The notes under the pieces were generated by a model, which had not been told where the DNA came from, did no database searches, and saw only the letters and a list, made by a program, of their open reading frames with translations. Below are positions 1,616 through 37,797 of a stretch of 64,000 nt of DNA, piece by piece. Positions within the stretch are counted from its first letter, which is position 1, and every line of letters starts with the position of its first letter. The stretch is from Candidatus Woesearchaeota archaeon (GTDB lineage: Archaea; Nanobdellota; Nanobdellia; Woesearchaeales; JAZDKJ01), in NCBI GenBank assembly GCA_043803105.1, contig JAZDKJ010000006.1:208673-272672 (forward strand), written 5' to 3'. The translations under genes and the position numbers were made by a program.

Positions 1616-2272
1616 ATCTCCGCACTTTAGTGCGAGAGATGAATGGCGACACTTTCTTATTGGTGAAAAATAAAAAAATGCGTGACGAGCGTAAGCTGCG
1701 TCACGCATCTACTCAGTCAAAAGTAGCGTGAGCTTTGCTCGTCGGAGACGAGCAAAATGGCAAAACTTGAGATCAGGCATTTCGCGCACAAGGTCGGTGT
1801 CAACGTGCACCATTTGGAATGGTGCACAAAGTATCGTTACAAGATGTTTAAGCAGGACAAGTATAAAACTCTTGCGGAAGAAATTCTTAGGGAGGTGGCT
1901 GAAAGACTTCGTTTGGTTGTTCGTGAACTGAGTGTCATGCCTGAGCATATCCACATAAGTGTTGAAGCTCCACCTTGTATATCGCAGAGTAAGGCGCTTC
2001 AGCTTCTGAAGGGTAATTTGAGCTTCAGATTTTTTCGCGCCAATGAGAACTTTCGGTTGAGGTACCCTCAAGGACATTTCTTCAGCCCAGGAGGATTAGC
2101 AAACAGCACAGGGTATAACACAGTGGAAGTGGTGGATGAATATGTCAGGACTCAGCAAGACATTCACCAAAGAAACCTATCAGAGCTCACTGCAGGAAGC
2201 CCCGCACTTTAGTGCGGGGAGGAGGTCACTTGAGGAATAAGAAAAAAGAAAAATCCCCCCGAGGGGGGAAAA
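1616..2272. mobile_element. IS200/IS605-family insertion sequence carrying tnpA only, with subterminal hairpins
   Basis: A TnpA ORF is flanked by near-identical hairpins, CGCAC-TTTA-GTGCG at 1621-1636 and CCCGCAC-TTTA-GTGCGGG at 2201-2219. Further hairpins lie at 1680-1706, 1736-1754 and CCCCCC-GAG-GGGGGG at 2253-2270. Confidence 0.55.
1757..2212 (+). CDS. tnpA: IS200-like Y1 HUH transposase TnpA
   Basis: HUH motif in MPEHIHISVEAPP, then SQSKALQLLKGNLS, then the catalytic Tyr region RYPQGHFFSPGG...YNTVEVVDEYVRTQQ. The stop codon lies inside the right-end hairpin. Confidence 0.7.
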   Translation: MAKLEIRHFAHKVGVNVHHLEWCTKYRYKMFKQDKYKTLAEEILREVAERLRLVVRELSVMPEHIHISVEAPPCISQSKALQLLKGNLSFRFFRANENFRLRYPQGHFFSPGGLANSTGYNTVEVVDEYVRTQQDIHQRNLSELTAGSPAL

Positions 2273-12230: not shown

Positions 12231-12378
12231 TGTATCACCATGCAATGCGGTGGCTATTCAGGTTAAAAACACTTACTATGCTTTTGAAGGAAAATTTTCA
12301 GTTTCTGCGTAAGAAACGGAAAAGAGTTCTTTTCCCCAGTGCTGGTCCAAAAACCGGCTAAACCGTGCGTACCAAATT

Positions 12379-12508
12379 GAGCCTGCCGGGATTCGAACCC
12401 GGGTCTGAGGCTTTCTGCATCTCTTCCGCAAGCCCCCATTCTATTTGCCTACCGGCAAATCCCTGCAAATCCGTGGGATTTGAGGTTTCCAGGCTATACT
12501 ACAGGCCC
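12379..12508 (-). tRNA. tRNA gene, intron-containing or aberrant; anticodon tentatively GCG (Arg), isotype not secure
   Basis: Minus strand shows a perfect T-arm (CCGGG-TTCGAAT-CCCGG), a 3' acceptor CAGGCTC plus A, and no encoded CCA. The 5' acceptor GGGCCTG at 12502-12508 pairs with it. A GGGGC/GCCTC stem could give a GCG anticodon with a ~13-nt intron. The D-arm cannot be folded canonically over ~45 extra nt. Confidence 0.45.
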
Positions 12509-12625
12509 ACTATATTGTATGTGTATTGTTGGGGCTGGAGTGACCACAGAACTGTGTTCTGTGAGTATACTACAGGCCCTAAGACTATGAGGGTTAGTTA
12601 GTTTGTTTATAAAGTTTTAGAACTC

Positions 12626-14562: not shown

Positions 14563-15759
14563 ATGTCAGTCATTACTGCAATCAATCAGTTGCATGAGCT
14601 GAATAGCTCTCTTTCAAAGATCTGGCAGTTTGAGGTGGGCTCTCCCATATATTCTGACATTGCGGTTGGGGACATTAATGCCGATGGCAAGATGGAGATT
14701 GTCTTCAAGAGCAATGATGAGGAGCTTCACGTTATTTCTTCTGACGGCTCTAAGCTCTGGAGTTTTCACCTGGATGACGGCACTGAGCTCGAGCGCCTTT
14801 TCCTTGACAAGGACAGCGTCCGTGTTGTCTGTTCAAGCCCTGTTCTTGCAGACATCAATGATGACGGACGGCTTGAGATAATCATTGGGAGCACCAACGG
14901 TAGGTTGTATTGCATCGACTCTGCTGGCAGGAAGTTATGGGAATTTAAGACCAATGACTCGATAAACTCAACACCCCTTGTGGCAGACATAAACAATGAT
15001 TCCATCCCTGAGATAGTCTTTGGCTCAAATGACCACCTCTTGTATGCCCTGGATTCCAAAGGTCGGCAGCTCTGGACTTTTGAAGCTGGCCTCGAGATTG
15101 AGTCCGGTGTTGCCCTTGCTGAATTTGCAGGCAAGCCTTCAATTCTTTTTGGCTCAAATGACAACCATGTTTACGCTCTCTCTGCAAATGGTGAACTTGT
15201 GTGGAAGTTTCAGACCCAAGGTCCTGTCTGCGCAACACCAATGGTCGGTGACCTTCATGGCGATGGCCAGAAAAAGGTTGTTGTTGGTTCACAGGACGGG
15301 CTTGTTTACGTGTTGAAGCACACTGGCCAGCTCGAATGGAAGCTTAAGACCTCCGGCAAGATAGTCTCTGAAGTTGGTCTCGCTGATATTAACGGTGATA
15401 ACAAGCTTGAGATTGTGGTCACGTCCTGCTGTTACGAGAATAATGTTCTTATTCTTTCGAACACAAAGGATACGATTGGTTCCTTTGGCGCCGGCTTCTG
15501 GGTGACAAGCTCCCCTATAATTAAGGATATTGACCAGGACGGCAACGATGAGATAATATTCGGTAGCTACGACCATCACCTTTACATCCTTACCTTTAAG
15601 AGGGAACTAAAGGAGTATTACCGTGGCGAGTTAAAGCAGGAAGTAACTCTATACAATGCAGAATGCATGATTGTAGGTACGCCTGCAGTCCTTGAGGGCA
15701 GAGGTACAATCATCGTTACCGCTAATGGCAAGGGCAGTGTGATAGCGCTTAAGATCTAG
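14563..15759 (+). CDS. PQQ-like beta-propeller repeat protein
   Basis: Eight or more repeats of the form ...DG.LWKF......SSP...D(I/L)N(N/G)DG..EI..GS.D. Start lies 3 nt after the KaiC-like stop. Confidence 0.65.
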   Translation: MSVITAINQLHELNSSLSKIWQFEVGSPIYSDIAVGDINADGKMEIVFKSNDEELHVISSDGSKLWSFHLDDGTELERLFLDKDSVRVVCSSPVLADINDDGRLEIIIGSTNGRLYCIDSAGRKLWEFKTNDSINSTPLVADINNDSIPEIVFGSNDHLLYALDSKGRQLWTFEAGLEIESGVALAEFAGKPSILFGSNDNHVYALSANGELVWKFQTQGPVCATPMVGDLHGDGQKKVVVGSQDGLVYVLKHTGQLEWKLKTSGKIVSEVGLADINGDNKLEIVVTSCCYENNVLILSNTKDTIGSFGAGFWVTSSPIIKDIDQDGNDEIIFGSYDHHLYILTFKRELKEYYRGELKQEVTLYNAECMIVGTPAVLEGRGTIIVTANGKGSVIALKI

Positions 15760-22397: not shown

Positions 22398-25300
22398 CTA
22401 AGGATTGCTGCCCCGGTTCTTGGTTATCACAAAAACTGCATAGCCTATCATCGCCAGGGTTGATGCCAGCACAATACTGAGTTGCATCACGTTCTGTTTG
22501 GCAAAACTTATCAGGGTTGCCAGCGTGCCTTGCTCCATTGGTTGTTCGATCGTTCTCATCTGGCTGGTAATTAAGTACCTGCAAGCGTCGATTGCGTTCT
22601 TCAGCAGCTGCTGCGCTTCTGTGATTAATCCCGATTCTATGTCTGCCCTTGCCTCAGCCAACAGCTCGTTCAGCTCAAGGCATTCTGGGTTCGAAGATAG
22701 AAGGTCCCTGACAAAGCGTACAGAGTCGTTCATTGATTCAAGGAACGGCAATGGGTTTATGGATATAACAGCATTGTCTCTGAAATATGGGTCTTCTGAT
22801 ATCGCGCTTAGGTTTATCTGGTAAGGCTTTTGCTTTGGCTTGCTCGTGGTAATGTTTAGTTCAGTCTCTGTCTTTTCTCCAGGTCTTAGCTGGTTGAACC
22901 TCATTTCCTTGAACGTAAGTGTGACATTGCCTTCAGATGTTTGAGCCATAAGATGTATCTGTTTTAGGGTCACGTTGCCGCTGTTTCTCAATTCAATCGG
23001 TGCGATTATCTCTGTAGGAGAATTGAATTTCAGCGGTTTTGTCAACACAAGTTCAAGCGATATCGGTCTGGTAACATTGACAAGTTCTTTTCTTGGTACG
23101 CTTATGTACTGCGTCGCCCCACCCCCGCTGGAGCTTGCCTGTGGCAGGTATTCCTCAGGTGCCTTCTTTACAGAGACCACTACTGTATTTGACCATGCCG
23201 TCCTGTTTCTGGAGTCAGTGGTCCAGAAGACGAGGCTTGCATCTCCTGTGAAACCTGCCTCCGGGTTAAGGTTGACATACTTTTGGTTGTTAATGCTCAA
23301 CCCAAGATAGTCTGCATTCTGGATGCTCGTGTAGTTGAAGGTCAGTGAGTCATTGTCAGGGTCTTTGAAATAGTCATCCAAATCAATCCAATTCTGTACA
23401 GAGTGGTCTTCCACAACGATAAAGTTTGCTATGGAATAATTCATCTGTAAGCTTTCAATTACAGGTGTAACACCAATGTTGCTTGTGCTCATGTTTATCA
23501 TGAACTGCACGAACCTTGTGTTCCAAGTTGCAGGTGATGCATTCTGTTCGAACTCGTGGCTGAAGTTGATTAAGGTATGTTCGCTGTTTGTGGAAGGCTT
23601 GCCCCACGCGCTCCAGTTTATGCCGTCTGCGCTTGTTCTGGTCCTGATTGTTATGTTTGTCCCGGCAGGCTTTGATTCCATCCAGCTAACAATCGTCAGG
23701 TTGGGCCTTGCCACTGAGGTATAAACACCTGTCTGAGAGTCAACAGCACTTGAGATATAGCTTCCCTTTGTGTAGTAGCTGGTGCTGTTCTGTCTGGACA
23801 AGGTTATGTTTTGCGCTGTGTTGTTGGTTCTGTAGTTTGTGCCTCCTGTTAAACCTATTGTCTTTCTCCCAAAATATGATGGCCTGTCCAAGTTTTTTAC
23901 AGTGACATTCCAGTAGAAGGATGCCTTGTTCCCTAGTTGGTCGCGTACCTCAACTGTGACGTTTCTTGTTCCTGAATCAAACCACCCGATGTTATAGTTC
24001 CAGCTGCTGGCTGTGCCTTGAAGAACCCCGCCAAGTATCCATTTGTAATATTTTGGGTCTCCGTCTGGCTCAATACTGCTCTGGTTGAAAAGGATTGTTC
24101 TGTTCTCTGTAATATTTATCCTTGTTCCTTGGGGGAAAAGGTTGCGGTTTGCAAAGGCAAATACTGTGTAGCTTGATATCGGCCATCCATAAGGATATAT
24201 CATCGTGATGTTTGGCGCGTAGTTTGTTCCGTTGATTCTGAAAATCACCTTTCCGCCGGTCCATAGGCTTCCGTCATTCAAGGATATGTTTACTGTGTGA
24301 TTGCCCACCATCCCGCTGGTTATCGTATAGTTGATTAATCCCATCTGCAGTGAGATGTTCGTAATATTGAACATGGTTGAGTTTGTGTAAAAGAATAGCC
24401 TGTCGCCATCCACGTCTGAGCCGTTCACGTATATCACAGCCCTGTCTCCTACTTTGTACACTTTGTTCGGTATGTTTCTCATGATTGGCGCATCATTGAC
24501 TGAGGTCACTGTCACGGTAATGTTGTTGCTGTACGTTACGTTATGTGTGTCATTGAGGCTGAAGTAGAATACCTCCACCCCATGCCAGTTGGCTGAGGGA
24601 TAGAGGGAAATCTTGCTGTCATCCTCGATATTGACATTTACGTATACATCATCATAGACCTTGTAGCTCAGGTTATCCTTCTGTGAGCCTGAGCATAGGT
24701 GAAAGTCTGGGTCATAGAAATAGTCTGTTAATGTGAAATTGTCAATCAGGTCATGGTCCTCCTCCCACGTGATATTGGGGAAGGATATGTTCAGAAAAGG
24801 CCCCCTGTTGACATTTATTACTGTGACATTCCATGTTAAAACCGTTGTAGCGTTCTGTGAGTCCGTAGCCCAAACTGTCACATTATAGCGTCCTGCCTCA
24901 CAATATCCTGGCCAATACGTCCAATTCCTCTCATACGCTTTGATGGTGTTCATCAGGTAATACTTGAATGTTACAGGCTGGCCTTCCTCATCATACACCT
25001 GTGTGATATTGAAGAGCAATGAGCTTCCTTCAAATACAGAAACATTAGTCTGGTTGGGTTTGTAGCCTAGGATTACAGGAGGATCATTGACGTTCACGAT
25101 GCGGAATACCACCAGCCTGGATACATTGTTGAATCCGTCGCTAAGCGAGATGTTCACTGTGTGGTTTCCAACATCTTTCTGTATGGGTGTAAGGCCTATG
25201 TGATAGCTTGTTGTGTTGACCTTTGTCAAGTTGAACAGCGTATTATTGCTCCACATTGTGAGATTTGCCATTTCCTCGTCATAGCCGCCTATGTATATGC

Positions 25301-27518
25301 TTGCTGTCTGGTCTTCCAGCAGGGTGTAGTTTGTCCGTAGATTTGTAAAATAAGGTAGATCATTGACAATTGTAATGTTTAATGTGAAGATTGTGAGGTT
25401 ATACCCACCATATCCATCAGTGACATTCACCCTGATTGTATGGTTTCCCGCGTCTGCCTGCTGTGGTGTGAAATTAATGAGGCCTGCCGTGCTGTTGAAT
25501 AGGGATATCGAAAAGAAGCTAGCATTTGTCTGGAATATCAATTGGTCATTGTCAGGGTCAAATCCATTCACATAAAAGGTTAGTCTCTGGTCCTCTGCTA
25601 TGGTTTTTGGTCCTATTGGATAGATTAACGGCGCCCGGTTCACGAATATGGTCAAGTGCACGACCTGTGAATCGCTTTTCTGTATTGTGGTATCATCATC
25701 ATGTACGCTGATGTTCACAAACCATTCTCCAACCAGTGATGTGTTTGTGATGTTTAGGTTTGTACTGCTGCTTGCAGGGCTTATCACGTTTGCTGCGTCA
25801 ATGTTAAAGAAAGTGCAGTTATCAGTGAAGGTTAGTATATCATCTTCATCAAGGTCTGTCGCACTAAGATTCAGCAGATACGAGCGGTTTATCCTGAGGT
25901 AGGTGTGTGGGATTGCCGCCAGGATTGGTGGGTTGTTGTAGTCTACTATGCTGAACTTTACCAGGGTGTAGTTGATTGCACCCTTTGAATCAGTGACGGT
26001 TATCCTTACAGTATGGTTTCCAACGTCTTGATTGACTGGTGTGAAGCTGATTTGCCCTGTTGCATTGCCGTCTGCATGCCTTACCGTGACTATGTTGAAG
26101 AATGTTGCATTGTCTGTGAATGTCAGGTTATCCCCGTCCTGGTCTGTTGCATTGATTGTAGTAAAGAAAGGGGTACCTTCCATTGCTGACTGGTTGTTTA
26201 TGTGTTGTATCCATGGTGCTGTGTTGTTTCTTATTGTGAACTTGACTATCTGCGAGTCCCAGAGCTCTGAGTCATTGACTGAGATGTTCACGAAATGGTC
26301 ACCTTGTTGCGAATTGCTGGGAGTAAAGTTGATTAAACCGGATAGTGCGCCAATTGTAAATAACGTGGAGTTGCTGTTAAAGTATAGGTATTCTCCACCA
26401 TCCACGTCTGTTGCGTTTGCCCAGAATTCGTACTTCAGGCCTGCAATCAAGGTTTGGTTGGGGATGAACACGAGCTCAGGCGGGTCATTGACACCAGTCA
26501 CATTAAGCTTTATCGTGTTGCCGAATGCAGCATTGTGGCTGTCATTTGCCTTGAGCGTGATGTACTCAACACCCCAGAAATTTACCTGCGGCAAGAAGCT
26601 CACCTTGGAACTCGTGGCATTGATTGTAACCATTATGTATGTATTGCCACTCACTGTGTAAATTACTGTGTCTTTGTTTGCACCGGTGCAATTTATGTCA
26701 GGGTCAACGAAATAGCTCTGCAGTGTTAGATTGTTTGTTAGATTATGGTCCTCCTGCCAGGTGATGTTGGCAAAGCTTCCATTGAGCACTGGAGGCCTGT
26801 TTGTGTTGTTTACTGTTATAGTCCAATTGTGTGTGTCTGCAGTCTCGTTGAGGTCCCTGACCACAAGCGATACATTGTGTTTTCCTGCTGAACAAAAGTC
26901 CGCATAATATGTCCAGCTTCCGTTTGACATATTGGAGATTTTTTTTGCCGTATTGTCCAGGTACCATGTTGTGTTAAGCCTGTCTCCCCATGGCATGTCC
27001 TTGTCGCTTGTGCTGTAGTTGAACCAGAATCCTACGCTGAGGTTCTCTTGTGTGCTCACATTTTTCTGCACTGGATTCCACCAGGTGATGTTTGGCTTGT
27101 CGTTCAAGTTCTTTACGTAGAAGTACAGCAATACGCCTGAGAATTCTGTTGGTTTTCCTGCGTCCAGCGCGTTCACAATTATGGTCCAGTTCAGTTGGCC
27201 TGTCAAAGGATCTCCCACGTCATTATTTGTGGGAGTGAAGTTCATCAGCGCTGCAGTATTGTTCTTGCTTACCAGGCTGAATGAGCTGAATTTTCCAGGA
27301 GGCAGGTCGTGGGTAAAGTTTATTGGGTACTCCAAGTCTGGGTCTGTTGCTATTATGAAGAACTGGAACCTCTGTCCTTGTGTCAGGTTGAACATGGTGC
27401 CGCTTGCAACATTCTGGAATATCGGGTTTGCTGCATAGACTCCTGTTACGGTTAGGATGAGTGCAACTGCGATCAACACTGTTGACCTTCTCATGTCATC
27501 CTCACTTTTATTGTGCAA
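22398..27518 (-). CDS. giant (1706-aa) cadherin-like-repeat surface protein with signal peptide and C-terminal membrane anchor
   Basis: N-terminal signal peptide. Many roughly 100-aa repeats each ending in a V(N/T)D-x-PP-like motif (VNDPPELVF, VNDAPIMRN, NTNRPPVLNG, VNRAPLIYP). Very dense N-x-S/T sequons. C-terminal TM segment. Confidence 0.75.
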   Translation of the reverse strand: MHNKSEDDMRRSTVLIAVALILTVTGVYAANPIFQNVASGTMFNLTQGQRFQFFIIATDPDLEYPINFTHDLPPGKFSSFSLVSKNNTAALMNFTPTNNDVGDPLTGQLNWTIIVNALDAGKPTEFSGVLLYFYVKNLNDKPNITWWNPVQKNVSTQENLSVGFWFNYSTSDKDMPWGDRLNTTWYLDNTAKKISNMSNGSWTYYADFCSAGKHNVSLVVRDLNETADTHNWTITVNNTNRPPVLNGSFANITWQEDHNLTNNLTLQSYFVDPDINCTGANKDTVIYTVSGNTYIMVTINATSSKVSFLPQVNFWGVEYITLKANDSHNAAFGNTIKLNVTGVNDPPELVFIPNQTLIAGLKYEFWANATDVDGGEYLYFNSNSTLFTIGALSGLINFTPSNSQQGDHFVNISVNDSELWDSQIVKFTIRNNTAPWIQHINNQSAMEGTPFFTTINATDQDGDNLTFTDNATFFNIVTVRHADGNATGQISFTPVNQDVGNHTVRITVTDSKGAINYTLVKFSIVDYNNPPILAAIPHTYLRINRSYLLNLSATDLDEDDILTFTDNCTFFNIDAANVISPASSSTNLNITNTSLVGEWFVNISVHDDDTTIQKSDSQVVHLTIFVNRAPLIYPIGPKTIAEDQRLTFYVNGFDPDNDQLIFQTNASFFSISLFNSTAGLINFTPQQADAGNHTIRVNVTDGYGGYNLTIFTLNITIVNDLPYFTNLRTNYTLLEDQTASIYIGGYDEEMANLTMWSNNTLFNLTKVNTTSYHIGLTPIQKDVGNHTVNISLSDGFNNVSRLVVFRIVNVNDPPVILGYKPNQTNVSVFEGSSLLFNITQVYDEEGQPVTFKYYLMNTIKAYERNWTYWPGYCEAGRYNVTVWATDSQNATTVLTWNVTVINVNRGPFLNISFPNITWEEDHDLIDNFTLTDYFYDPDFHLCSGSQKDNLSYKVYDDVYVNVNIEDDSKISLYPSANWHGVEVFYFSLNDTHNVTYSNNITVTVTSVNDAPIMRNIPNKVYKVGDRAVIYVNGSDVDGDRLFFYTNSTMFNITNISLQMGLINYTITSGMVGNHTVNISLNDGSLWTGGKVIFRINGTNYAPNITMIYPYGWPISSYTVFAFANRNLFPQGTRINITENRTILFNQSSIEPDGDPKYYKWILGGVLQGTASSWNYNIGWFDSGTRNVTVEVRDQLGNKASFYWNVTVKNLDRPSYFGRKTIGLTGGTNYRTNNTAQNITLSRQNSTSYYTKGSYISSAVDSQTGVYTSVARPNLTIVSWMESKPAGTNITIRTRTSADGINWSAWGKPSTNSEHTLINFSHEFEQNASPATWNTRFVQFMINMSTSNIGVTPVIESLQMNYSIANFIVVEDHSVQNWIDLDDYFKDPDNDSLTFNYTSIQNADYLGLSINNQKYVNLNPEAGFTGDASLVFWTTDSRNRTAWSNTVVVSVKKAPEEYLPQASSSGGGATQYISVPRKELVNVTRPISLELVLTKPLKFNSPTEIIAPIELRNSGNVTLKQIHLMAQTSEGNVTLTFKEMRFNQLRPGEKTETELNITTSKPKQKPYQINLSAISEDPYFRDNAVISINPLPFLESMNDSVRFVRDLLSSNPECLELNELLAEARADIESGLITEAQQLLKNAIDACRYLITSQMRTIEQPMEQGTLATLISFAKQNVMQLSIVLASTLAMIGYAVFVITKNRGSNP

Positions 27519-27838
27519 TTGTTTTGCTTATTGTCCACAGTATATTGCACCTCAACAGTGTTCTGCCCAACTTGTACATCTTGCCATGTGCATCTTATTC
27601 CTTCTTGTATTGCTGAGCAAATGTTTGTGTCTGCTTTGGTTGGATAGCCTTCAATCGTTGCCACTATGTTCTGCCCTTTGCTTAAAATGATTTCATCATT
27701 GCACCTGATGTGGTGGATTTCTTCTTGCGACATTACCAAGTAGCTGGTTAATGACTGAGTGTCGAGCATCAGGCTTATAGCTGCTAATATGGTGGTTATT
27801 AGCACCAGGAGCCCCATTTGCTGTTTCCACTGCCTCAT
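27491..27838 (-). CDS. small secreted or membrane-anchored Cys-containing protein
   Basis: Signal-anchor GLLVLITTILAAI, four Cys, and a position between the two large surface genes with short overlaps on both sides. Confidence 0.4.
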   Translation of the reverse strand: MRQWKQQMGLLVLITTILAAISLMLDTQSLTSYLVMSQEEIHHIRCNDEIILSKGQNIVATIEGYPTKADTNICSAIQEGIRCTWQDVQVGQNTVEVQYTVDNKQNNCTIKVRMT

Positions 27839-30006
27839 TTCTTCTCCTTTGTTGATTTATGTAGTTCGTCGTACAGCCTTCGTACTGCTGCAAAGTATTG
27901 TCTCTGGTCTTGCTCGCTCAAGACCTTGTAAAGTTTCATCACTTGCTTGTACCCTCGAACCGCTGCCTGTTGGTCATTCTTGTGCATTGCCTCAAATACA
28001 TTGTATATCAACTCAAACATCTGCCTGGATTTTCCTTCTATTTTCCATGAGGTTTTGTTTTGTATAATACGCATGTCTGTGCTCTGCTTGATTATTCTGC
28101 GAAGTTCTTCTATCAAGTTTGCTAGCTCCTCGCTTGACACTACATAATTGCTGTACTCTATCTCTTTGATTCTTCGCAGCAATGATTCCGCTATTCCTTG
28201 CAACTTTGGATCAACCCTCCTTTTCCTAAGTTCTACAGCTATCTCCTCGTAGGTAAATTCATAATCCAGTCTAAGCATTGCCTTGAAGAATTGCTTGGTT
28301 GCGCTGCCAAGCTCCTTGATGCCTTCCTTTGGATGTCTTACATCAATCGAGTCCAGTTGTGCCAAGACCTCCTCATAAGTTGTCGTCTCTGTTCTGAAGG
28401 TCAATTTCATCAGCTGTGCAAGGTTCTGGCTCGTTCTGTGTTTTTCTAGTACCTTGGTTACATATGGTTTGCTAATCATGATACCAACTAGGATTGCCAT
28501 TGTAAGGAGGCTAATCAAAATAATTGACCATCCTGTGAAAGCCTCCTGCAAAGTCTCTATTGATATCGGCTGCTCTGTAGCTATTACCGCCTCTCCCGCC
28601 CCGCCAGGTTGCGCTAGGCATGGTTCGCAAGGTCCTCCGCAATCTATGCCTGCCTCTTCCTGGTTCTTTACCCTGTCATAGCATGTGGCGCATGGCTGGC
28701 ATGGTCCGCCGCAATCAACACCCTCCTCATTCCGGTTCCACACTCCGTCAATGCATTGGGGTATGCCCTTGCATGGCTGGCTTATGCTCGGCCTCTTCTT
28801 TATGGTGTTGCAATTGTTTAGGTCTATGCAGTTCCTGTACATTGTGCCGTTTTCAAGGCAGCCATCCCACCTCTGGCAGAACCACTCTTCAACGCACTTA
28901 ATGCTTCCACCACCTCCGCCTCCGCCTCCGCCTGCAGCTGCCGGTACTATAGGTGGTGGTGTAGTGACGCGGAGTGAAACATTGTTGCTTCTGTTGCTTG
29001 CACCCCAATTGTCTGTTACAGTGAAGTACACCAATTCATTGCCAATCCATCCTTGCGGCTGTGAGAAAACCACAAAATTGTTGCTCGTTGGGTAAATGTC
29101 TGCTTTTATTACGTGCAGCGGATTGAGATATACAACATTGAAGTATAGGTGGTCGTCCCTGTCAGGGTCAAACACAAAATCATTCAGGTAGAATGCCGCC
29201 CTTATCTGATTTACAAACCAGGTCTGTGGCTCTAGGTTCCTGATAAACCTTGGTGGCCTGTTGACATTGGTTATGTTCACTGTCCAGTTTAGCATTCTCG
29301 TGTTGTTGAATTGGTCTGACAGCATGATTGACACATTGAAAATGCCTACCGAAGTGAAGTTGGTGTTAAGTGCATACCTGCTGCTTCCAGTTGCATTGGC
29401 TGTGCTGTTTCTTGTCTGCCCGTTGACTCTCCATTGTAGGCTGACTGTCTCATTTAGGGTTTCAAAGAATGAGACCTTGAACCGCAAGGTCTTGTTCTCG
29501 CTTATGTTGACTTTCGGGAATTTGCTGTATACTGATTGATTTGGGTAATAACCTGTTATGTTTGGTGGTAGGTTTTTTATTATCGTGATGTTCAGGCTTT
29601 TGGTTGTTAGCCTGTTTGAGCAAATTGAACTGTCATCTGCTGTTATGTTGACCGTTTGCCTTCCTGTATTGGCATTGCTGGCTGTAAAGTAGATTACTCC
29701 GGTAATTGGGTCTATGTCAAACATGGTACTGTCATCAAAATAGGTGATTGTGTCGTTGTGCGGGTCAGTTGCATTGGCTCTGCAAAAATAATAGTAGAAA
29801 GCTGTGAAGTTCTTTGGGCAATTGATATTGAGTTGCGGCGGTACATTGATGCACAGGTTCAACAGTGCTTCTGAAAAGTCGCTTGCTTTGCCTGTTAGCC
29901 GTGTTGGTGCACTGGCTTCTTGGTAGATTCTCACGTTTATGTAAAAGCCTATGATTACGAAAACAACCGCCACTGCGGCTATTGTGTTGTTTGAGATCCT
30001 AATCAT
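27835..30006 (-). CDS. 723-aa single-pass surface protein with a cadherin-like repeat ectodomain, poly-Gly linker, Cys-rich module, TM helix and cytoplasmic Tyr/Leu-repeat domain
   Basis: Signal peptide, VNRPP motif, a G9 linker, two GxDCGGPC(Q/E)PC repeats, the TM helix WSIILISLLTMAILVGIMI, and a C-terminal domain homologous to ORF 21369-22397. Confidence 0.7.
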   Translation of the reverse strand: MIRISNNTIAAVAVVFVIIGFYINVRIYQEASAPTRLTGKASDFSEALLNLCINVPPQLNINCPKNFTAFYYYFCRANATDPHNDTITYFDDSTMFDIDPITGVIYFTASNANTGRQTVNITADDSSICSNRLTTKSLNITIIKNLPPNITGYYPNQSVYSKFPKVNISENKTLRFKVSFFETLNETVSLQWRVNGQTRNSTANATGSSRYALNTNFTSVGIFNVSIMLSDQFNNTRMLNWTVNITNVNRPPRFIRNLEPQTWFVNQIRAAFYLNDFVFDPDRDDHLYFNVVYLNPLHVIKADIYPTSNNFVVFSQPQGWIGNELVYFTVTDNWGASNRSNNVSLRVTTPPPIVPAAAGGGGGGGGGSIKCVEEWFCQRWDGCLENGTMYRNCIDLNNCNTIKKRPSISQPCKGIPQCIDGVWNRNEEGVDCGGPCQPCATCYDRVKNQEEAGIDCGGPCEPCLAQPGGAGEAVIATEQPISIETLQEAFTGWSIILISLLTMAILVGIMISKPYVTKVLEKHRTSQNLAQLMKLTFRTETTTYEEVLAQLDSIDVRHPKEGIKELGSATKQFFKAMLRLDYEFTYEEIAVELRKRRVDPKLQGIAESLLRRIKEIEYSNYVVSSEELANLIEELRRIIKQSTDMRIIQNKTSWKIEGKSRQMFELIYNVFEAMHKNDQQAAVRGYKQVMKLYKVLSEQDQRQYFAAVRRLYDELHKSTKEKK

Positions 30007-31868: not shown

Positions 31869-32525
31869 TTAAATTTTTGGTTTACCTGTCGCTATAACTG
31901 TATTGCGTTTTAATCCTAGGGGGGCTGTGCCGTCAAAACTGACTTGAACATGCAGGCTAATTGTGTTTGCCGAGACACCATAGTAGAATCTGTCGCAGGT
32001 TATATTGCTCCATCCCTCATGCGTAACCTCAACCCAGTCATTCACGAATTTTGACATATTGGTTGACAAGACGCACCCTGCTGTGGCTGTCGAACCTGTC
32101 CTTGTGCCGTTAAGCATCTTAAAAAACAAATGGGCATTTGTCCCTCCAACAAATGCTGAGCTGTTCTTGAAAGTGATGTTTAGTGAGCAGTTGTTGTTTC
32201 CGATATTCCTTAACTCCAATGCCTCAGTACAAGCCTGAAAGGTTGTAGAGCATCCACTTGTATTGATATATCCGCTCGTGTTCAGTTTGCAGGTCCTCGT
32301 TGCGTATCCGGTTCCCCAGTTGCACCTTGCCTGGCTAAAGTTAATCCAGTTTACGTCGCTTATTGTAAGACTAATGTTGCCTACTGTTTTGTTGGCTGAA
32401 GCGAATCCTGCTGCCCCCGGTTTAATCCCTGATAGTTTGTTCAGGCTTATAAGTGACCCTCCTATTGATACCACTATAGCTGATATAAGAAGTATTGTTA
32501 GTGTCTTGTTGGATATTTCTTGCAT
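31869..32525 (-). CDS. secreted Cys-containing paralog P1 (218 aa)
   Basis: N-terminal signal anchor, conserved ARCNWG.GYA...CKLNTS.YIN.SGCS...NIGNNNCSLNITFKN...ATGKPKI. Many N-sequons. Confidence 0.55.
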   Translation of the reverse strand: MQEISNKTLTILLISAIVVSIGGSLISLNKLSGIKPGAAGFASANKTVGNISLTISDVNWINFSQARCNWGTGYATRTCKLNTSGYINTSGCSTTFQACTEALELRNIGNNNCSLNITFKNSSAFVGGTNAHLFFKMLNGTRTGSTATAGCVLSTNMSKFVNDWVEVTHEGWSNITCDRFYYGVSANTISLHVQVSFDGTAPLGLKRNTVIATGKPKI

Positions 32526-32536
32526 TTTTTTCCTCC

Positions 32537-32770
32537 TTATGGCTTTCGTATCTCTAGGTTGATTTCTGCTTGTGTTGTTGGTTGCGGTTGTATGTTCAGT
32601 TGTATTTCTGCGTTTGCCGTCGGTATATCTGTTGGTTGTTTGTTTGTTGTTTGTTGGCCTGGTGCTTTCGGTATATTAACACTAGTTATAAAAGCCCACG
32701 TGCTTATTACAGAGCTCATAATGACTAGCACCAACAGAATTAGTACAGTGTTTTTTGATATGTCTGTCAT
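32537..32770 (-). CDS. small single-TM protein S1 (77 aa), cassette partner of P1
   Basis: MTDISKNTVLILLVLVIM...WAFIT...PTTQAEINLEIRKP. Start set at the conserved MTD.SKN. Confidence 0.45.
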   Translation of the reverse strand: MTDISKNTVLILLVLVIMSSVISTWAFITSVNIPKAPGQQTTNKQPTDIPTANAEIQLNIQPQPTTQAEINLEIRKP

Positions 32771-32830
32771 CCTCTTTGAACCTCCTTGAGTGCGATTCTT
32801 CCTGCCGAATAGTCGCATTAGTTGCTTGTC

Positions 32831-33487
32831 TTACACCTTTGGTTTTCCTGTTGCTATTATAGTATTGGTTCTCACTCCTGTCCTTGCCGCTGCGTCAAAT
32901 TCTACTTGGACTTGGAGGGTTATTGTGTTTTGGTTTACTCCGAAGTAGAATTTGTCGCATGTGATGTTGCTGTATGCTTCTTTTGTTACTTTTACCCAGT
33001 CTGCTGATACGAATCTTGAGAAGTTTGTTGAAAGGGTGCATCCAGGTCTTATGTTTGTTGCTCCGGTCCCGTTTTGCAGTTTATAAAATAGTTTAGTGTT
33101 TGCTCCTCCTATAAATTCTGAATTGTTTTTGAATGTGATGTTTAGTGAGCAGTTGTTGTTTCCGATGTTCTTAATCTGCAGCGGTAAGCAGTTTACTGTG
33201 CTGAAGCCTGGCGAGCATCCGCTTGCGTTTATGTATGGGCTTGTGTTCAGTTTGCACATTGTTGTTGCGTAGCCTGATCCCCAGTTGCACCGTGCTTGTG
33301 AGAAGTTTATCCAGTTAATGTCGCTTATCGTGAGTGTCACATTGCCCCTTGTTATATTTGCCGTGGCAAAGCCCGCAATGTTTTGCACTGCCGCAAGCCT
33401 GTTTAGGCTAATAAGCGATCCTCCTAAGGTAATTATGATAGCGGCAATTAGCAATATAGCCAATGTTCTGTTAGATATTTCTTCCAT
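32831..33487 (-). CDS. secreted Cys-containing paralog P2 (218 aa)
   Basis: Same family as P1 and P3, with stretches of near-identical nucleotide sequence. Confidence 0.55.
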   Translation of the reverse strand: MEEISNRTLAILLIAAIIITLGGSLISLNRLAAVQNIAGFATANITRGNVTLTISDINWINFSQARCNWGSGYATTMCKLNTSPYINASGCSPGFSTVNCLPLQIKNIGNNNCSLNITFKNNSEFIGGANTKLFYKLQNGTGATNIRPGCTLSTNFSRFVSADWVKVTKEAYSNITCDKFYFGVNQNTITLQVQVEFDAAARTGVRTNTIIATGKPKV

Positions 33488-33501
33488 TGTGTTTTCCTCC
33501 T

Positions 33502-33744
33502 TTATGGTTTTTTTATTTCTAGGTTGATTTCCGCCTGTGTCGTTGGTGGCGGTTGTACAGGTTGTATAAACAGTTCTATCTGACCGTCTACTGCTGGCGG
33601 CATGTTTATCTGTTGTTTGATTGGTGTTTGCGCCTGTCTTTGCAGAGTGTTCACATTGGTGATGAACGCCCAGGTACCAATAACAGAGGTCAGGATAATC
33701 ATTACTAATAGAACCAATATGATATTCTTGGACACGTCCGTCAT
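33502..33744 (-). CDS. small single-TM protein S2 (80 aa), cassette partner of P2
   Basis: MTDVSKNIILVLLVMIIL...WAFITNVN...PPTTQAEINLEIKKP. Confidence 0.45.
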   Translation of the reverse strand: MTDVSKNIILVLLVMIILTSVIGTWAFITNVNTLQRQAQTPIKQQINMPPAVDGQIELFIQPVQPPPTTQAEINLEIKKP

Positions 33745-33848
33745 TAGATCCTTTTTTAAACTATGTTTGTTGAATCCTAAATATGGTTTTTGATACTGCA
33801 CATATTTAAGCTTTTCTGTGACCTGAAACACAGGTTGCCTGACTTTGT

Positions 33849-34514
33849 CTATATTTTTGGTTTTCCTGTTGCTATTATTTTGTTGATTCTAAATCCTGTG
33901 GTTGCTGCTGCGTCAAATTCTACTTGGACTTGGAGGGTTATTGTGTTTTGGTTTACTCCGTAGTAGAATTTGTCGCATGTGATGTTGCTGTAATATGTTT
34001 TTGTTACTTTTACCCAGTTTGCTGTTACGAATCTTGAGAAGTTTGTTGATAGGGTGCATCCGGGTAGTGTGTTTGTTGTTCCGGTCCCGTTTTGTAGTTT
34101 GTATGATATTTTTGCGTTTGCTCCTCCTATGAATGCTGAGCTGTTTTTGAATGTGATGTTTAGTGAGCAGTTGTTGTTTCCGATGTTTTTTATTTGTAGT
34201 GGTGCGCAGTTTGTTGTTGTGAAGCCTGATGAGCATCCGCTTGCGTTTATGTATGGGCTGGTGTTCAGTTTGCAGGTCTTTCTTGCGTAGCCTGATCCCC
34301 AGCTGCATCTTGATTGTGAGAAGTTGATCCAGTTAATGTCGTTGATTGTAAATGAGACGTTGCCTCCGGTTTCGTTTGTTACTGCATAGCCTATTATGGC
34401 TAAGTGGCCTTCGCCAGTGATTCGGTTTATGCTCAGTAATGTGCCCATTACAGTCACAAAGAGCGCAACCACTGCAATGGATGCCAGAACTTTGTTGGAC
34501 ACGTTATTATACAT
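33849..34514 (-). CDS. secreted Cys-containing paralog P3 (221 aa)
   Basis: Same family. First gene of the operon, with an AT-rich promoter at 34515-34650. Confidence 0.55.
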   Translation of the reverse strand: MYNNVSNKVLASIAVVALFVTVMGTLLSINRITGEGHLAIIGYAVTNETGGNVSFTINDINWINFSQSRCSWGSGYARKTCKLNTSPYINASGCSSGFTTTNCAPLQIKNIGNNNCSLNITFKNSSAFIGGANAKISYKLQNGTGTTNTLPGCTLSTNFSRFVTANWVKVTKTYYSNITCDKFYYGVNQNTITLQVQVEFDAAATTGFRINKIIATGKPKI

Positions 34515-36615: not shown

Positions 36616-36673
36616 CTGCCTTCTGAGCTTGGTAGAAAATTTTATAACCTACTCTCTGTTCTTCCTGGCTTGC

Positions 36674-36795
36674 GGGCCCGTAGCTTAGTCTGGTGGAGCG
36701 CTGGTCTTATATGTCCACGTTCTAAGTGAACCAGTGGTCTGGGGTTCAAAGAGCTCTCCCTTTTTTGGAAGACCTAGAAAATCCCCGCGGGCCCA
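36674..36795 (+). tRNA. tRNA-Ile with a UAU anticodon and two introns: 17 nt at 37/38 (36712-36728) and 31 nt in the T-loop (36751-36781)
   Basis: Folded by hand. Acceptor GGGCCCG pairs with CGGGCCC (36788-36794); discriminator A; D-arm GCTT-AGTCTGGTG-GAGC. Anticodon stem CTGGT pairs with ACCAG (36730-36734), loop C-T-TAT-A. T-stem TGGGG pairs with CCCCG, and the T-loop TTCAAA|T is split by an intron. No encoded CCA. Confidence 0.7.
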
Positions 36796-37242
36796 TATCT
36801 TTTCAAAATGAGAAGAACTCTTTTCACACAATGCTCTCCACCATAGAACAGCCAGGAATTTGTATTGGTCGTTACAATTTCAACAAACACAATCAACTGT
36901 ATTGCTGCTTTTCAGATAATTCGCTTTTTGTGGTTCAATTCTTTGGTCCTTTCTCTTGGTTACAGTCAAAGCTTTGCAGTCTTGAGAATGTGGTTCATGA
37001 GTTCAAACTTCGCCGAAGTTTGGGTTCGACTGAGGCTAGATATATCGCCCTTGACTTTGTCGACAACTATTCCGTGCTGAAGGAACATGAATCTCTTCAT
37101 CTCCAGCATAATCTGTGCCGGGTGGATGCATGGCTCAGGATGACAACCTCTGGTCTTACAGTCCAACAGTTTCTTGCATTGAGGAGTCCTTATGCTCGAC
37201 AATATGAGCATAAGCTGCAGCTAAGTGCTACAAAGACTTAGT

Positions 37243-37797
37243 TCATTCGTTTTTTGTGCGCGGACCATGTTCATATAGCGCTACAAAAACCTCTTTAGGC
37301 ACCTGAATCCCTGCTGCAACTAGCGCCTTTGCAAGTTCAAGCCCAGGCACCCTCTCTCCATAATCATCATCAGGTTTTGGCTGCGATAACTCTTGAAGTC
37401 TTCTCAAGGTGTAATTGCATAGGAATCCTTCATTCATGGCTATTACTTTGGTGTCAGTTCCGCTTTGATCTCTTATCTCTGAAGCAACAAAGTCTACTGC
37501 CAAGCCTTTAAGATTGTGCTGTGCAAGTTCCCAATCTATCAGGTCCTTAATTATCGTCGAGAAAGGCCTTTGAAGATATTCCTCCTTGTTGGTTGTCTTA
37601 ACATGCTCGAAGAATTCAACCGATGTCTTTTCATTTCTTGTCACCTTGCCAAGGTACTGTTTCACCTTCTGTTTTGCCTGTCTCCTTTCGCTGTTCCATG
37701 AATTCTCTACAAGATAGGCAAATTCACACTCTGCGCCGTCACCTTTTTTTCTCTTCTTTACTCGAATGAATGTCATCTCTGCACCTCTTTTGGGCAC
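37243..37797 (-). CDS. hypothetical protein (184 aa)
   Basis: ORF with a basic N-terminus (RVKKRKKGDG) and no recognised family. Confidence 0.4.
   Translation of the reverse strand: MPKRGAEMTFIRVKKRKKGDGAECEFAYLVENSWNSERRQAKQKVKQYLGKVTRNEKTSVEFFEHVKTTNKEEYLQRPFSTIIKDLIDWELAQHNLKGLAVDFVASEIRDQSGTDTKVIAMNEGFLCNYTLRRLQELSQPKPDDDYGERVPGLELAKALVAAGIQVPKEVFVALYEHGPRTKNE

What the first reader, a model, noticed from the sequence alone, without database searches (positions are those of the whole stretch)
36674..36795. tRNA-Ile(UAU) with two introns, one of them inside the T-loop
Hand folding gives a complete cloverleaf only if two segments are removed: a 17-nt intron at the canonical 37/38 site and a 31-nt intron splitting the T-loop (TTCAAA|T). 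After splicing the anticodon loop reads C-U-UAU-A, which decodes AUA. Most archaea read AUA with a CAU tRNA modified to agmatidine by TiaS. A genomically encoded UAU tRNA-Ile has been reported only in a few lineages (Nanoarchaeum, Korarchaeum) that lack tiaS. A UAU tRNA-Ile plus non-canonical intron placement would support a DPANN-like lineage that decodes AUA without agmatidine.
Basis: partly seen in the sequence, partly recalled or inferred. Interest (0 to 1): 0.75.

Follow-up and report, generated by a model that had tools for sequence, protein, structure and literature searches.

The report
Two-intron AUA-reading isoleucine tRNA gene
This is a real isoleucine tRNA gene (anticodon UAU) of a Woesearchaeota (DPANN) archaeon, split by two introns; both features are already known in this group, so it is a solid but ordinary find.

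Summary
Observation confirmed. Window 36674-36795 (+) encodes a 74-nt tRNA-Ile(UAU) once a 17-nt intron (36712-36728, site 37/38) and a 31-nt T-loop intron (36751-36781, site 59/60) are removed. Both junctions fit bulge-helix-bulge geometry. The anticodon-loop motif has a perfect 4-bp central helix. The T-loop motif has 3 of 4 pairs.

Orthologues decide the case. All 46 other tRNA-Ile(UAU) genes came from public DPANN genomes and metagenomes. All but one carry the 37/38 intron, and 15 carry an intron at the same T-loop site with unrelated sequence but the same motif. Three orthologues sit in the same gene neighbourhood. They keep both introns, have a TATA box exactly 26 nt upstream, and carry a third intron in the D-loop.

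The source is a Candidatus Woesearchaeota MAG. AUA is the commonest Ile codon in the window.

The DPANN origin is right. The claim of rarity is outdated: the ARMAN lineages were reported in 2011 to have tRNA-Ile(UAU) and to lack TiaS, and disrupted tRNAs are known in DPANN. Absence of tiaS and of a CAU tRNA-Ile2 could be checked only within the 64-kb window, where neither occurs.

Verdict: new member of a known kind, modest interest.

The parts
36634..36647 (+). Archaeal promoter: purine-rich BRE-like AGAAAA (36634-36639) followed by TATA box TTTTATAA (36640-36647)
   Evidence: Read from the sequence. The TATA box lies exactly 26 nt upstream of the tRNA 5' end in the window, in the three syntenic orthologues L043, L046 and L048, and in L050 (my own count on the sequence printed). 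The spacer sequence itself differs between them.
36674..36795 (+). Whole pre-tRNA-Ile(UAU) gene, 122 nt. No CCA is encoded.
   Evidence: ARAGORN on the spliced sequence; partial Rfam tRNA match; orthologue alignment and pair counts.
36674..36711 (+). Exon 1 (tRNA positions 1-37): acceptor 5' strand, D-arm, anticodon stem 5' strand, loop C32 U33 U34 A35 U36 A37
36708..36710 (+). Anticodon TAT (UAU), which reads the AUA codon
   Evidence: ARAGORN and the Rfam alignment both place UAU at 34-36. The bulge-helix-bulge register fixes the splice site after A37.
36712..36728 (+). Intron 1, 17 nt (UGUCCACGUUCUAAGUG), canonical site 37/38
   Evidence: Central helix C32-A35 (CUUA) pairs with UAAG, 4 of 4. 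Bulges are UA|U and UG|A. The inner helix is only 1 bp, so the motif is relaxed. Conserved 16/17 in L043 and 14/17 in L046, counted from the intron sequences.
36729..36750 (+). Exon 2 (positions 38-59): A38, anticodon stem 3' strand, variable loop UGGUC, T-stem 5' strand, T-loop UUCAAA
36751..36781 (+). Intron 2, 31 nt, non-canonical site 59/60 in the T-loop. It holds an internal hairpin and a T6 run (36761-36766).
   Evidence: The T-stem is the outer helix. Central helix U54-A57 (UUCA) pairs with AGAA, 3 of 4 (A57.A mismatch). Bulges are AA|G and AA|U. The inner helix is AG/CU plus a hairpin. 15 orthologues have an intron at the same site with unrelated sequence.
36782..36795 (+). Exon 3 (positions 60-73): U60, T-stem 3' strand, acceptor 3' strand, discriminator A73
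36796..36804 (+). 3' trailer TATCTTTTC with a short oligo-T run. Possibly an archaeal terminator (inferred).
   Evidence: Read from the sequence. Not tested.

Best explanation
A functional gene for the AUA-decoding tRNA-Ile(UAU) of a Woesearchaeota (DPANN) archaeon.

Proposed mechanism:
1. The gene is transcribed from its own TATA/BRE promoter as a 122-nt precursor.
2. The archaeal tRNA splicing endonuclease (EndA) cuts at two bulge-helix-bulge motifs. One is formed by the anticodon loop and the 3' end of intron 1 (site 37/38). The other is formed by T-loop nucleotides 54-57 and the 3' end of intron 2 (site 59/60).
3. An RtcB-type ligase joins the three exons into a 74-nt tRNA, and CCA is added.
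4. The mature tRNA reads AUA, the most used Ile codon in this window. It most likely replaces the usual archaeal tRNA-Ile2(CAU)/TiaS (agmatidine) system, as reported for ARMAN and Nanoarchaeum.

Shown here: gene structure, anticodon, intron sites, conservation of the motifs, promoter conservation and lineage.

Inferred: actual splicing, the enzymes involved, absence of TiaS, and how U34 is kept from reading AUG.
For: - ARAGORN calls tRNA-Ile(tat) after splicing. Rfam's tRNA model aligns UAU to the anticodon.
- The spliced RNA folds into a four-helix structure (acceptor, anticodon and T arms as expected; D-region paired differently), z = -3.9.
- Bulge-helix-bulge at 37/38: central helix 4/4 in the window and in 30 of the 39 orthologues tabulated.
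- Bulge-helix-bulge at 59/60: the intron ends in UGAA (8), GGAA (2) or AGAA (window) followed by A(G/A)|U in 11 genes. Their intron cores share no sequence but mostly fold into hairpins.
- Cloverleaf covariation: 99.7% paired, 13 compensatory pairs.
- Syntenic orthologues downstream of CarS (L043, L046/L047, L048) keep the 17-22-nt intron 1 beginning UGUCCACGUUCU. They also keep an intron at 59/60 and a TATA box exactly 26 nt upstream.
- Isoleucine identity: in L042 the UAU tRNA shares its acceptor, variable and T arms, and nearly its D arm, with the tRNA-Ile(GAU) of the same contig.
- AUA is 29.9 per 1000 codons, the commonest of the three Ile codons in the window's ORFs.
- Lineage: Woesearchaeota.
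- Precedent: ARMAN tRNA-Ile(UAU), lack of TiaS, and experimental cleavage at 37/38 and 59/60 by a DPANN EndA (PMC3239211).
Against: - No expression or splicing data exist.
- Intron 1 has almost no inner helix, and intron 2 has an A.A mismatch in the central helix. Both motifs are therefore relaxed and need a broad-specificity EndA. That enzyme was not found in the window.
- A T6 run inside intron 2 could act as an archaeal termination signal upstream of exon 3.
- Absence of tiaS and of tRNA-Ile2(CAU) is established only for 64 kb of a genome whose source contig alone is 542 kb.
- The pair counts are partly circular. My splice parser required intact stems when it chose the intron boundaries.
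Confidence: 0.85

Rival explanations
1. The UAU tRNA is real, but it supplements a conventional tRNA-Ile2(CAU)/TiaS agmatidine system encoded elsewhere in the genome rather than replacing it.
For: Only 64 kb were searched for TiaS. One relative, L012, has a CAU tRNA with an intron about 600 nt from its tRNA-Ile(UAU). Whether that tRNA is Met or Ile2 could not be decided.
Against: No paper in the library links TiaS with DPANN.
Confidence: 0.15
2. A decaying pseudogene. The T-loop insertion and the truncated 17-nt anticodon intron are lesions, and the gene no longer yields a working tRNA.
For: Intron 1 is the shortest of the 40 genes tabulated (orthologues: 19-48 nt) and lacks an inner helix. 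The central helix of intron 2 has a mismatch. There is a T6 run inside intron 2.
Against: All 21 cloverleaf pairs are intact. The same short intron 1 (16/17 identical) and an intron at the same 59/60 site occur in syntenic relatives whose proteins are only 53-73% identical. The promoter spacing is conserved. GGAA-type mismatches in the same helix occur in other orthologues.
Confidence: 0.05
3. The splice register differs from the one proposed, so the mature anticodon, and hence the amino acid, is not UAU/Ile.
For: ARAGORN does not model bulge-helix-bulge motifs. It places the intron differently in several orthologues and then names them Thr, Ala, Ser or 'Stop'.
Against: The 3-4-3 geometry gives one register, with a 4/4 central helix, in the window and in most orthologues. 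The loop C-U-U-A-U-A is invariant in all genes, though the search pattern required it. The window contains no CAT or other alternative in a plausible loop frame (read from the sequence). The body is paralogous to tRNA-Ile(GAU).
Confidence: 0.03

Closest known systems
Pre-tRNA-Ile(UAU) of Candidatus Micrarchaeum acidiphilum ARMAN-2 (Fujishima et al. 2011, PMC3239211)
   Same: A DPANN archaeon with anticodon UAU and an intron at 37/38 in a bulge-helix-bulge motif. The genome is reported to lack TiaS and tRNA-Ile(CAU). In the same genome other tRNAs carry 59/60 T-loop introns, and the epsilon2 EndA cut both kinds in vitro.
   Different: The ARMAN-2 gene has a single 25-nt intron with a strict motif. 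The window's gene has a 17-nt relaxed motif plus a second intron at 59/60 in the same tRNA. The lineage differs (Woesearchaeota, not Micrarchaeota). The EndA type here is unknown.
tRNA-Ile(UAU) of Nanoarchaeum equitans and Korarchaeum cryptofilum (PMC6000648)
   Same: Genomically encoded UAU isoacceptor in archaea. The Korarchaeum gene has one intron and derives from the tRNA-Ile(GAU) of the same genome. The same paralogy is seen here in relative L042.
   Different: That survey of 167 genomes found only these two cases. No T-loop intron is described for them.
Multi-intron tRNAs with non-canonical introns in Thermoproteales and DPANN (PMC3239211, PMC5829648, PMC4090602)
   Same: One to three bulge-helix-bulge introns per gene. 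59/60 is a recurrent non-canonical site. Such genes are associated with broad-specificity EndA variants. Kaneta et al. 2018 include Woesearchaeota and Pacearchaeota genomes and note increased tRNA disruption in DPANN.
   Different: Those papers do not, in the text I read, describe this tRNA-Ile(UAU) family or its variable set of D-loop, anticodon-loop and T-loop introns.
tRNA-Ile(UAU) of the red alga Cyanidioschyzon merolae (PMC9602550)
   Same: [quoted passage not shown] This matches the three-intron orthologues L043, L046 and L048.
   Different: A eukaryote, so the resemblance is almost certainly convergent. There the introns affect Pus1/Pus4 pseudouridylation. Nothing comparable is known here.

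Membership tests
tRNA (class I cloverleaf) | 7-bp acceptor stem, 4-bp D stem, 5-bp anticodon stem with 7-nt loop, 5-bp T stem with 7-nt T-loop, 5-nt variable loop | tested here: met
   ARAGORN on the spliced sequence. 21 of 21 pairs are formed. Orthologues pair at 99.7% with 13 compensatory pairs.
tRNA (class I cloverleaf) | Conserved nucleotides U8, A14, G18 G19, U33, T54 T55 C56, A58 | tested here: met
   All present in the spliced sequence and invariant across 33 distinct orthologues. Position 21 is G rather than the usual A.
tRNA-Ile(UAU) isoacceptor | Anticodon U34 A35 U36 in the mature loop | tested here: met
   The bulge-helix-bulge register puts the cut after A37.
tRNA-Ile(UAU) isoacceptor | Isoleucine identity (charged by IleRS) | tested here: inconclusive
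   Indirect only: A73, A37 and A38 are present. In relative L042 the UAU tRNA shares its acceptor, variable and T arms, and nearly its D arm, with the tRNA-Ile(GAU) of the same contig. No tRNA-Ile(GAU) lies in the window. Aminoacylation cannot be tested with these tools.
Archaeal bulge-helix-bulge intron, canonical site 37/38 | Two 3-nt bulges on opposite strands separated by a 4-bp helix, flanked by an outer and an inner helix, with cuts after the second bulge nucleotide | tested here: met
   The outer helix is the anticodon stem. The central helix CUUA/UAAG pairs 4/4. Bulges are UA|U and UG|A. The inner helix is only G-C, so the motif is the relaxed type.
Archaeal bulge-helix-bulge intron, non-canonical site 59/60 | The same 3-4-3 geometry, built from the T-stem and T-loop nucleotides 54-57 | tested here: met
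   The outer helix is the T-stem. The central helix UUCA/AGAA pairs 3/4 (A57.A). Bulges are AA|G and AA|U. The inner helix is AG/CU plus a hairpin. The motif is relaxed, not strict. The same architecture occurs in 15 orthologues.
TiaS-independent AUA decoding (Nanoarchaeum / ARMAN type) | Genomically encoded tRNA-Ile(UAU) | tested here: met
TiaS-independent AUA decoding (Nanoarchaeum / ARMAN type) | No tiaS gene in the genome | tested here: inconclusive
   No Pfam TiaS domain in the 59 window ORFs scanned. tblastn with A. fulgidus TiaS (sequence validated against PDB 4RVZ) gives nothing significant in the window or in loci L001-L042. The rest of the genome could not be read.
TiaS-independent AUA decoding (Nanoarchaeum / ARMAN type) | No tRNA-Ile2(CAU) gene in the genome | not testable with these tools
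   No CAU tRNA in the window. Whole-genome tRNA calling is not available here.
DPANN / Woesearchaeota origin | Window proteins match proteins of that lineage most closely | tested here: met
   DNA ligase is 100% identical and CarS 99% identical to NCBI 'MAG: Candidatus Woesearchaeota archaeon' proteins on a 542,637-bp contig. The next hits are Woese- and Nanoarchaeota.

The most novel reading that the evidence does not exclude
The 37/38 intron may be kept in essentially every DPANN tRNA-Ile(UAU) gene because a modification of U34 (and perhaps U36) needs the intron-containing precursor. The intron is present in 46 of the 47 genes examined, across at least five named phyla. Many also share a 5' intron motif (U-G-N-C-C-N-C-G-U-U).

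The precedent is the intron-dependent Pus1 pseudouridylation of eukaryotic tRNA-Ile(UAU). Under this reading DPANN archaea would stop UAU from reading AUG by a eukaryote-like route. Loss of TiaS together with gain of this intron-bearing tRNA would then be a shared derived character of the group.
Probability: 0.15. Interest if true: 0.7.

Novelty: new member of a known kind. Interest (0 to 1): 0.3.

Why it matters
The finding shows that default tRNA finders miss an essential tRNA in a Woesearchaeota genome. ARAGORN and Rfam report no tRNA in 64 kb. The missed tRNA decodes the commonest Ile codon in the window's ORFs, so completeness and 'missing tRNA' statements for DPANN MAGs are unreliable without intron-aware searching.

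The comparative data add a small, concrete picture of intron turnover. Close relatives carry one, two or three introns (D-loop, 37/38, 59/60) in the same gene. The scan also shows that UAU-type AUA decoding occurs in several named DPANN phyla.

It does not change what is known about the mechanism of AUA decoding or of tRNA splicing.

Tried and rejected
- **Default tools.** Default ARAGORN and Rfam gathering thresholds find nothing. They cannot see the T-loop intron.
- **Exact-protein look-ups.** Three look-ups for the source contig failed because the proteins are not on record. The rest of the 542-kb contig could not be read.
- **Synteny in the 42 genome loci.** tblastn with 11 neighbouring window proteins gave one irrelevant hit. 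Synteny was found only through CarS homologues.
- **TiaS.**
  - tblastn gave only E > 0.4 hits. The two next to tRNA genes (L025, L036) turned out to be unrelated small ORFs, so I dropped them.
  - I ran no further search on TiaS. Only the best 120 hits are listed, and they would all be close relatives of Archaeoglobus.
- **Literature.** TiaS plus DPANN gave no relevant paper. Agmatidine plus DPANN phylum names gave none mentioning agmatidine. The Undinarchaeota supplements do not mention TiaS.
- **Intron copies.** Intron 2 has no second copy in the window, so there is no sign of intron transposition within these 64 kb.
- **Low-threshold ARAGORN candidates.** Those at 15278, 18191 and 43040 lie inside ORFs and were not pursued.
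- **L009 and L016.** Their T-arm intron parses at 53/54. I did not resolve its motif.

Full report
**1. The observation**

The stretch 36674-36795 reads GGGCCCG...CGGGCCCA. Default ARAGORN and Rfam at gathering threshold report no tRNA anywhere in the 64-kb window.

- With both removed, ARAGORN calls a 74-nt tRNA-Ile(tat).
- With only the second removed, it calls the same tRNA with a 17-nt intron after position 37.
- With only the first removed, or neither, it finds nothing.

A permissive Rfam scan of the region gives a partial tRNA match (16.8 bits, E = 0.57, model positions 8-63). It aligns UAU to the anticodon, inserts 18 nt after A37 and fails at the T-loop. That match is not significant alone but is consistent. 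The spliced RNA folds into a four-helix structure, in which the acceptor, anticodon and T arms are as expected and the D-region pairs differently, z = -3.9.

**2. The splice motifs**

In an archaeal bulge-helix-bulge motif two 3-nt bulges on opposite strands flank a 4-bp helix, and each cut falls after the second bulge nucleotide.

| Feature | Site 37/38 | Site 59/60 |
|---|---|---|
| Outer helix | anticodon stem | T-stem |
| Central helix | C32-A35 (CUUA) with UAAG, 4/4 | U54-A57 (UUCA) with AGAA, 3/4 (A57.A mismatch) |
| Bulges | U36 A37\|U and U G\|A38 | A58 A59\|G and A A\|U60 |
| Inner helix | a single G-C pair | AG/CU continuing into a hairpin |

Both motifs are therefore of the relaxed kind. 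The mature sequence is the same for any cut between 56/57 and 59/60. The geometry selects 59/60.

**3. Orthologues**

A scan of one genome per species used the D-arm plus CTTATA as the pattern. It returned 42 loci.
- Nearly all are labelled Woese-, Nano-, Aenigmat-, Micr- or Parvarchaeota. Some automated records are labelled 'Methanosarcinales'.
- None is the window's own genome.
- Of the 41 that can be assessed, 40 have an intron at 37/38, 19-48 nt long. Only L003 has none.
- 12 have an intron at 59/60, 13-48 nt long.
- Two (L009, L016) have an intron parsed at 53/54.

The T-loop introns share no core sequence. They end in UGAA (mostly), GGAA, GGAG or AGAA, followed by a 2-nt bulge and U60. 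Most cores fold into a hairpin directly after the 5' bulge. This is the pattern expected if only the splice motif is under selection.

The 33 distinct spliced sequences pair at 99.7% of cloverleaf cells. 13 of 21 pairs change on both sides (0 of 500 shuffles reach this; slid controls pair at 32-53%). One caveat applies: my parser required intact stems when it chose boundaries, so part of this result is circular.

**4. Synteny and promoter**

The window gene lies 58 nt downstream of CarS, in the gene order PS-decarboxylase, CDP-alcohol transferase, CarS, tRNA, ORF, AMMECR1, RpoL, methyltransferase. CarS homologues led to three related contigs with the same order: L043 (443-kb JGI contig), L046/L047 and L048. 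Each has the tRNA in the same place.

| Gene | D-loop intron | 37/38 intron | 59/60 intron |
|---|---|---|---|
| Window | none | 17 nt | 31 nt |
| L043 | 90 nt | 17 nt | 18 nt |
| L046/L047 | 13 nt | 17 nt | 28 nt |
| L048 | 13 nt | 22 nt | 28 nt |
| L050 | present | present | none |
| L051 | none | present | none |

- Intron 1 begins UGUCCACGUUCU in all four syntenic genes, and is 16/17 identical between the window and L043.
- The three relatives' 59/60 introns end in UGAA.
- The D-loop intron follows G19. Its central helix covaries: GUCU/GGAC in L046 against GCCU/AGGC in L048.
- L050 and L051 came from a clade-specific metagenome scan.
- A TATA box TTTTATAA lies exactly 26 nt upstream of the 5' end in the window, L043, L046 and L048 and in L050 (my count). 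The spacer itself diverges.

The proteins of these relatives are only 53-73% identical to the window's. Conservation of the exons, intron 1, the intron sites and the promoter spacing therefore argues for a working gene.

**5. Identity and need**

In L042 the UAU tRNA shares its acceptor, variable and T arms, and nearly its D arm, with the tRNA-Ile(GAU) on the same contig. This is the relationship reported for Korarchaeum (PMC6000648) and supports isoleucine identity. In 65 non-overlapping window ORFs, AUA occurs 567 times (29.9 per 1000), against 470 for AUU and 393 for AUC.

**6. Lineage**

The window's DNA ligase is 100% identical, and its CarS 99% identical, to NCBI proteins named 'MAG... 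[Candidatus Woesearchaeota archaeon]' on a 542,637-bp contig.

**7. The TiaS question**

No ORF of the window carries a TiaS or EndA domain. tblastn with A. fulgidus TiaS (validated against PDB 4RVZ) finds nothing. No CAU tRNA is present in the window. The rest of the genome could not be read. 'No agmatidine' therefore remains an inference from precedent.

**8. Comparison with what is known**

- Fujishima et al. 2011 (PMC3239211) reported four relevant things:
  - ARMAN-2, -4 and -5 have tRNA-Ile(UAU) and lack TiaS and tRNA-Ile(CAU).
  - The ARMAN-2 pre-tRNA-Ile(UAU) has a 25-nt intron at 37/38.
  - Other ARMAN-2 tRNAs have 59/60 introns.
  - The ARMAN-2 EndA cuts both kinds in vitro.
- Kaneta et al. 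2018 (PMC5829648) included Woesearchaeota and Pacearchaeota genomes. They linked DPANN EndA variants carrying an L3 loop with increased tRNA disruption, and noted that tRNA sets there are incompletely predicted.
- The survey that found UAU only in Nanoarchaeum and Korarchaeum covered 167 genomes (PMC6000648).
- A eukaryotic parallel exists. Cyanidioschyzon merolae tRNA-Ile(UAU) has D-, anticodon- and T-arm introns (PMC9602550).

The window's gene is therefore a new member of a known kind. What is added is the combination in one gene, its spread across many public DPANN genomes, and the one-to-three-intron variation among close relatives.

**9. Verdict**

Confidence is about 0.85 that this is a functional, spliced tRNA-Ile(UAU) gene. 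Confidence is lower, about 0.6-0.7, that it replaces rather than supplements the agmatidine system. Interest is 0.3.

The most novel reading still open is that the near-universal 37/38 intron serves an intron-dependent modification of U34, as in eukaryotes. I put this at about 0.15.

Noticed in passing
window 12378-12508 (-): A probable second disrupted tRNA, missed by default ARAGORN and by Rfam. It has an intact acceptor stem and T-arm (TTCGAAT). The best parse is tRNA-Arg(GCG) with a 44-nt D-loop intron (12445-12488, central helix GCCU/AGGC, the same site as the D-loop intron of L043/L046/L048) and a 13-nt 37/38 intron (12413-12425, central helix UUGC/GCAG). The D stem has an A12.A23 mismatch, and no TATA box is seen at -34 to -27. 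Many alternative parses exist.
   Followed up: partly
window 12566-12579 (-): A 14-nt exact repeat (GGGCCTGTAGTATA) of the 5' end of the candidate tRNA-Arg lies about 70 nt upstream of it. It may be a remnant of an integration or duplication event.
   Followed up: no
L043 5886-5975; L046 and L048 (same site): The syntenic orthologues of this tRNA-Ile(UAU) carry a third intron in the D-loop after G19 (90, 13 and 13 nt) with a covarying central helix. L050 has the D-loop and 37/38 introns but no T-loop intron, and L051 has only the 37/38 intron. Close relatives thus differ by gain or loss of introns.
   Followed up: partly
window 36761-36766: A T6 run sits in the hairpin loop of the T-loop intron, upstream of exon 3. 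Oligo-T is an archaeal termination signal, so read-through must be tolerated if the gene works. T4-T5 runs occur in introns of some orthologues (L008, L035).
   Followed up: no
window 36796-37242: About 450 nt between the tRNA and the next gene (37243-37797, -) hold only an odd-looking 171-aa ORF that overlaps the tRNA. Its part downstream of the tRNA has no Pfam match. In relatives this interval is much shorter, or holds a DUF212 gene upstream of the tRNA.
   Followed up: partly
window 1757-2242 (+): An IS200-like Y1 transposase ORF (1757-2212, Pfam E = 3.8e-23) overlaps a sub-threshold Rfam match to HgcC family RNA (2073-2242, 27.2 bits against a gathering score of 50). It could be an IS200/IS605-associated RNA.
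   Followed up: no
L002, L012, L013, L018, L023, L036, L039 (tRNA-Ile(UAU) genes): ARAGORN with introns enabled places the 37/38 intron in the wrong register in these orthologues. It then names them Thr(tgt), Ala(tgc) or Ser(tga). This is an annotation pitfall for DPANN tRNA sets.
   Followed up: partly
L012 216-309 (-): A CAU-anticodon tRNA with a 16-nt intron lies about 600 nt from this genome's tRNA-Ile(UAU). Its body differs from the Ile tRNAs. Whether it is elongator Met or an Ile2-type tRNA was not determined.
   Followed up: no
window 31869-34514 (-): Three tandem paralogous ORFs (218, 218 and 221 aa) have an N-terminal hydrophobic segment and near-identical C-terminal halves. The one I scanned (31869-32525) has no Pfam match; the other two were not scanned. 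They sit next to large secreted or surface proteins at 22398-30006.
   Followed up: no
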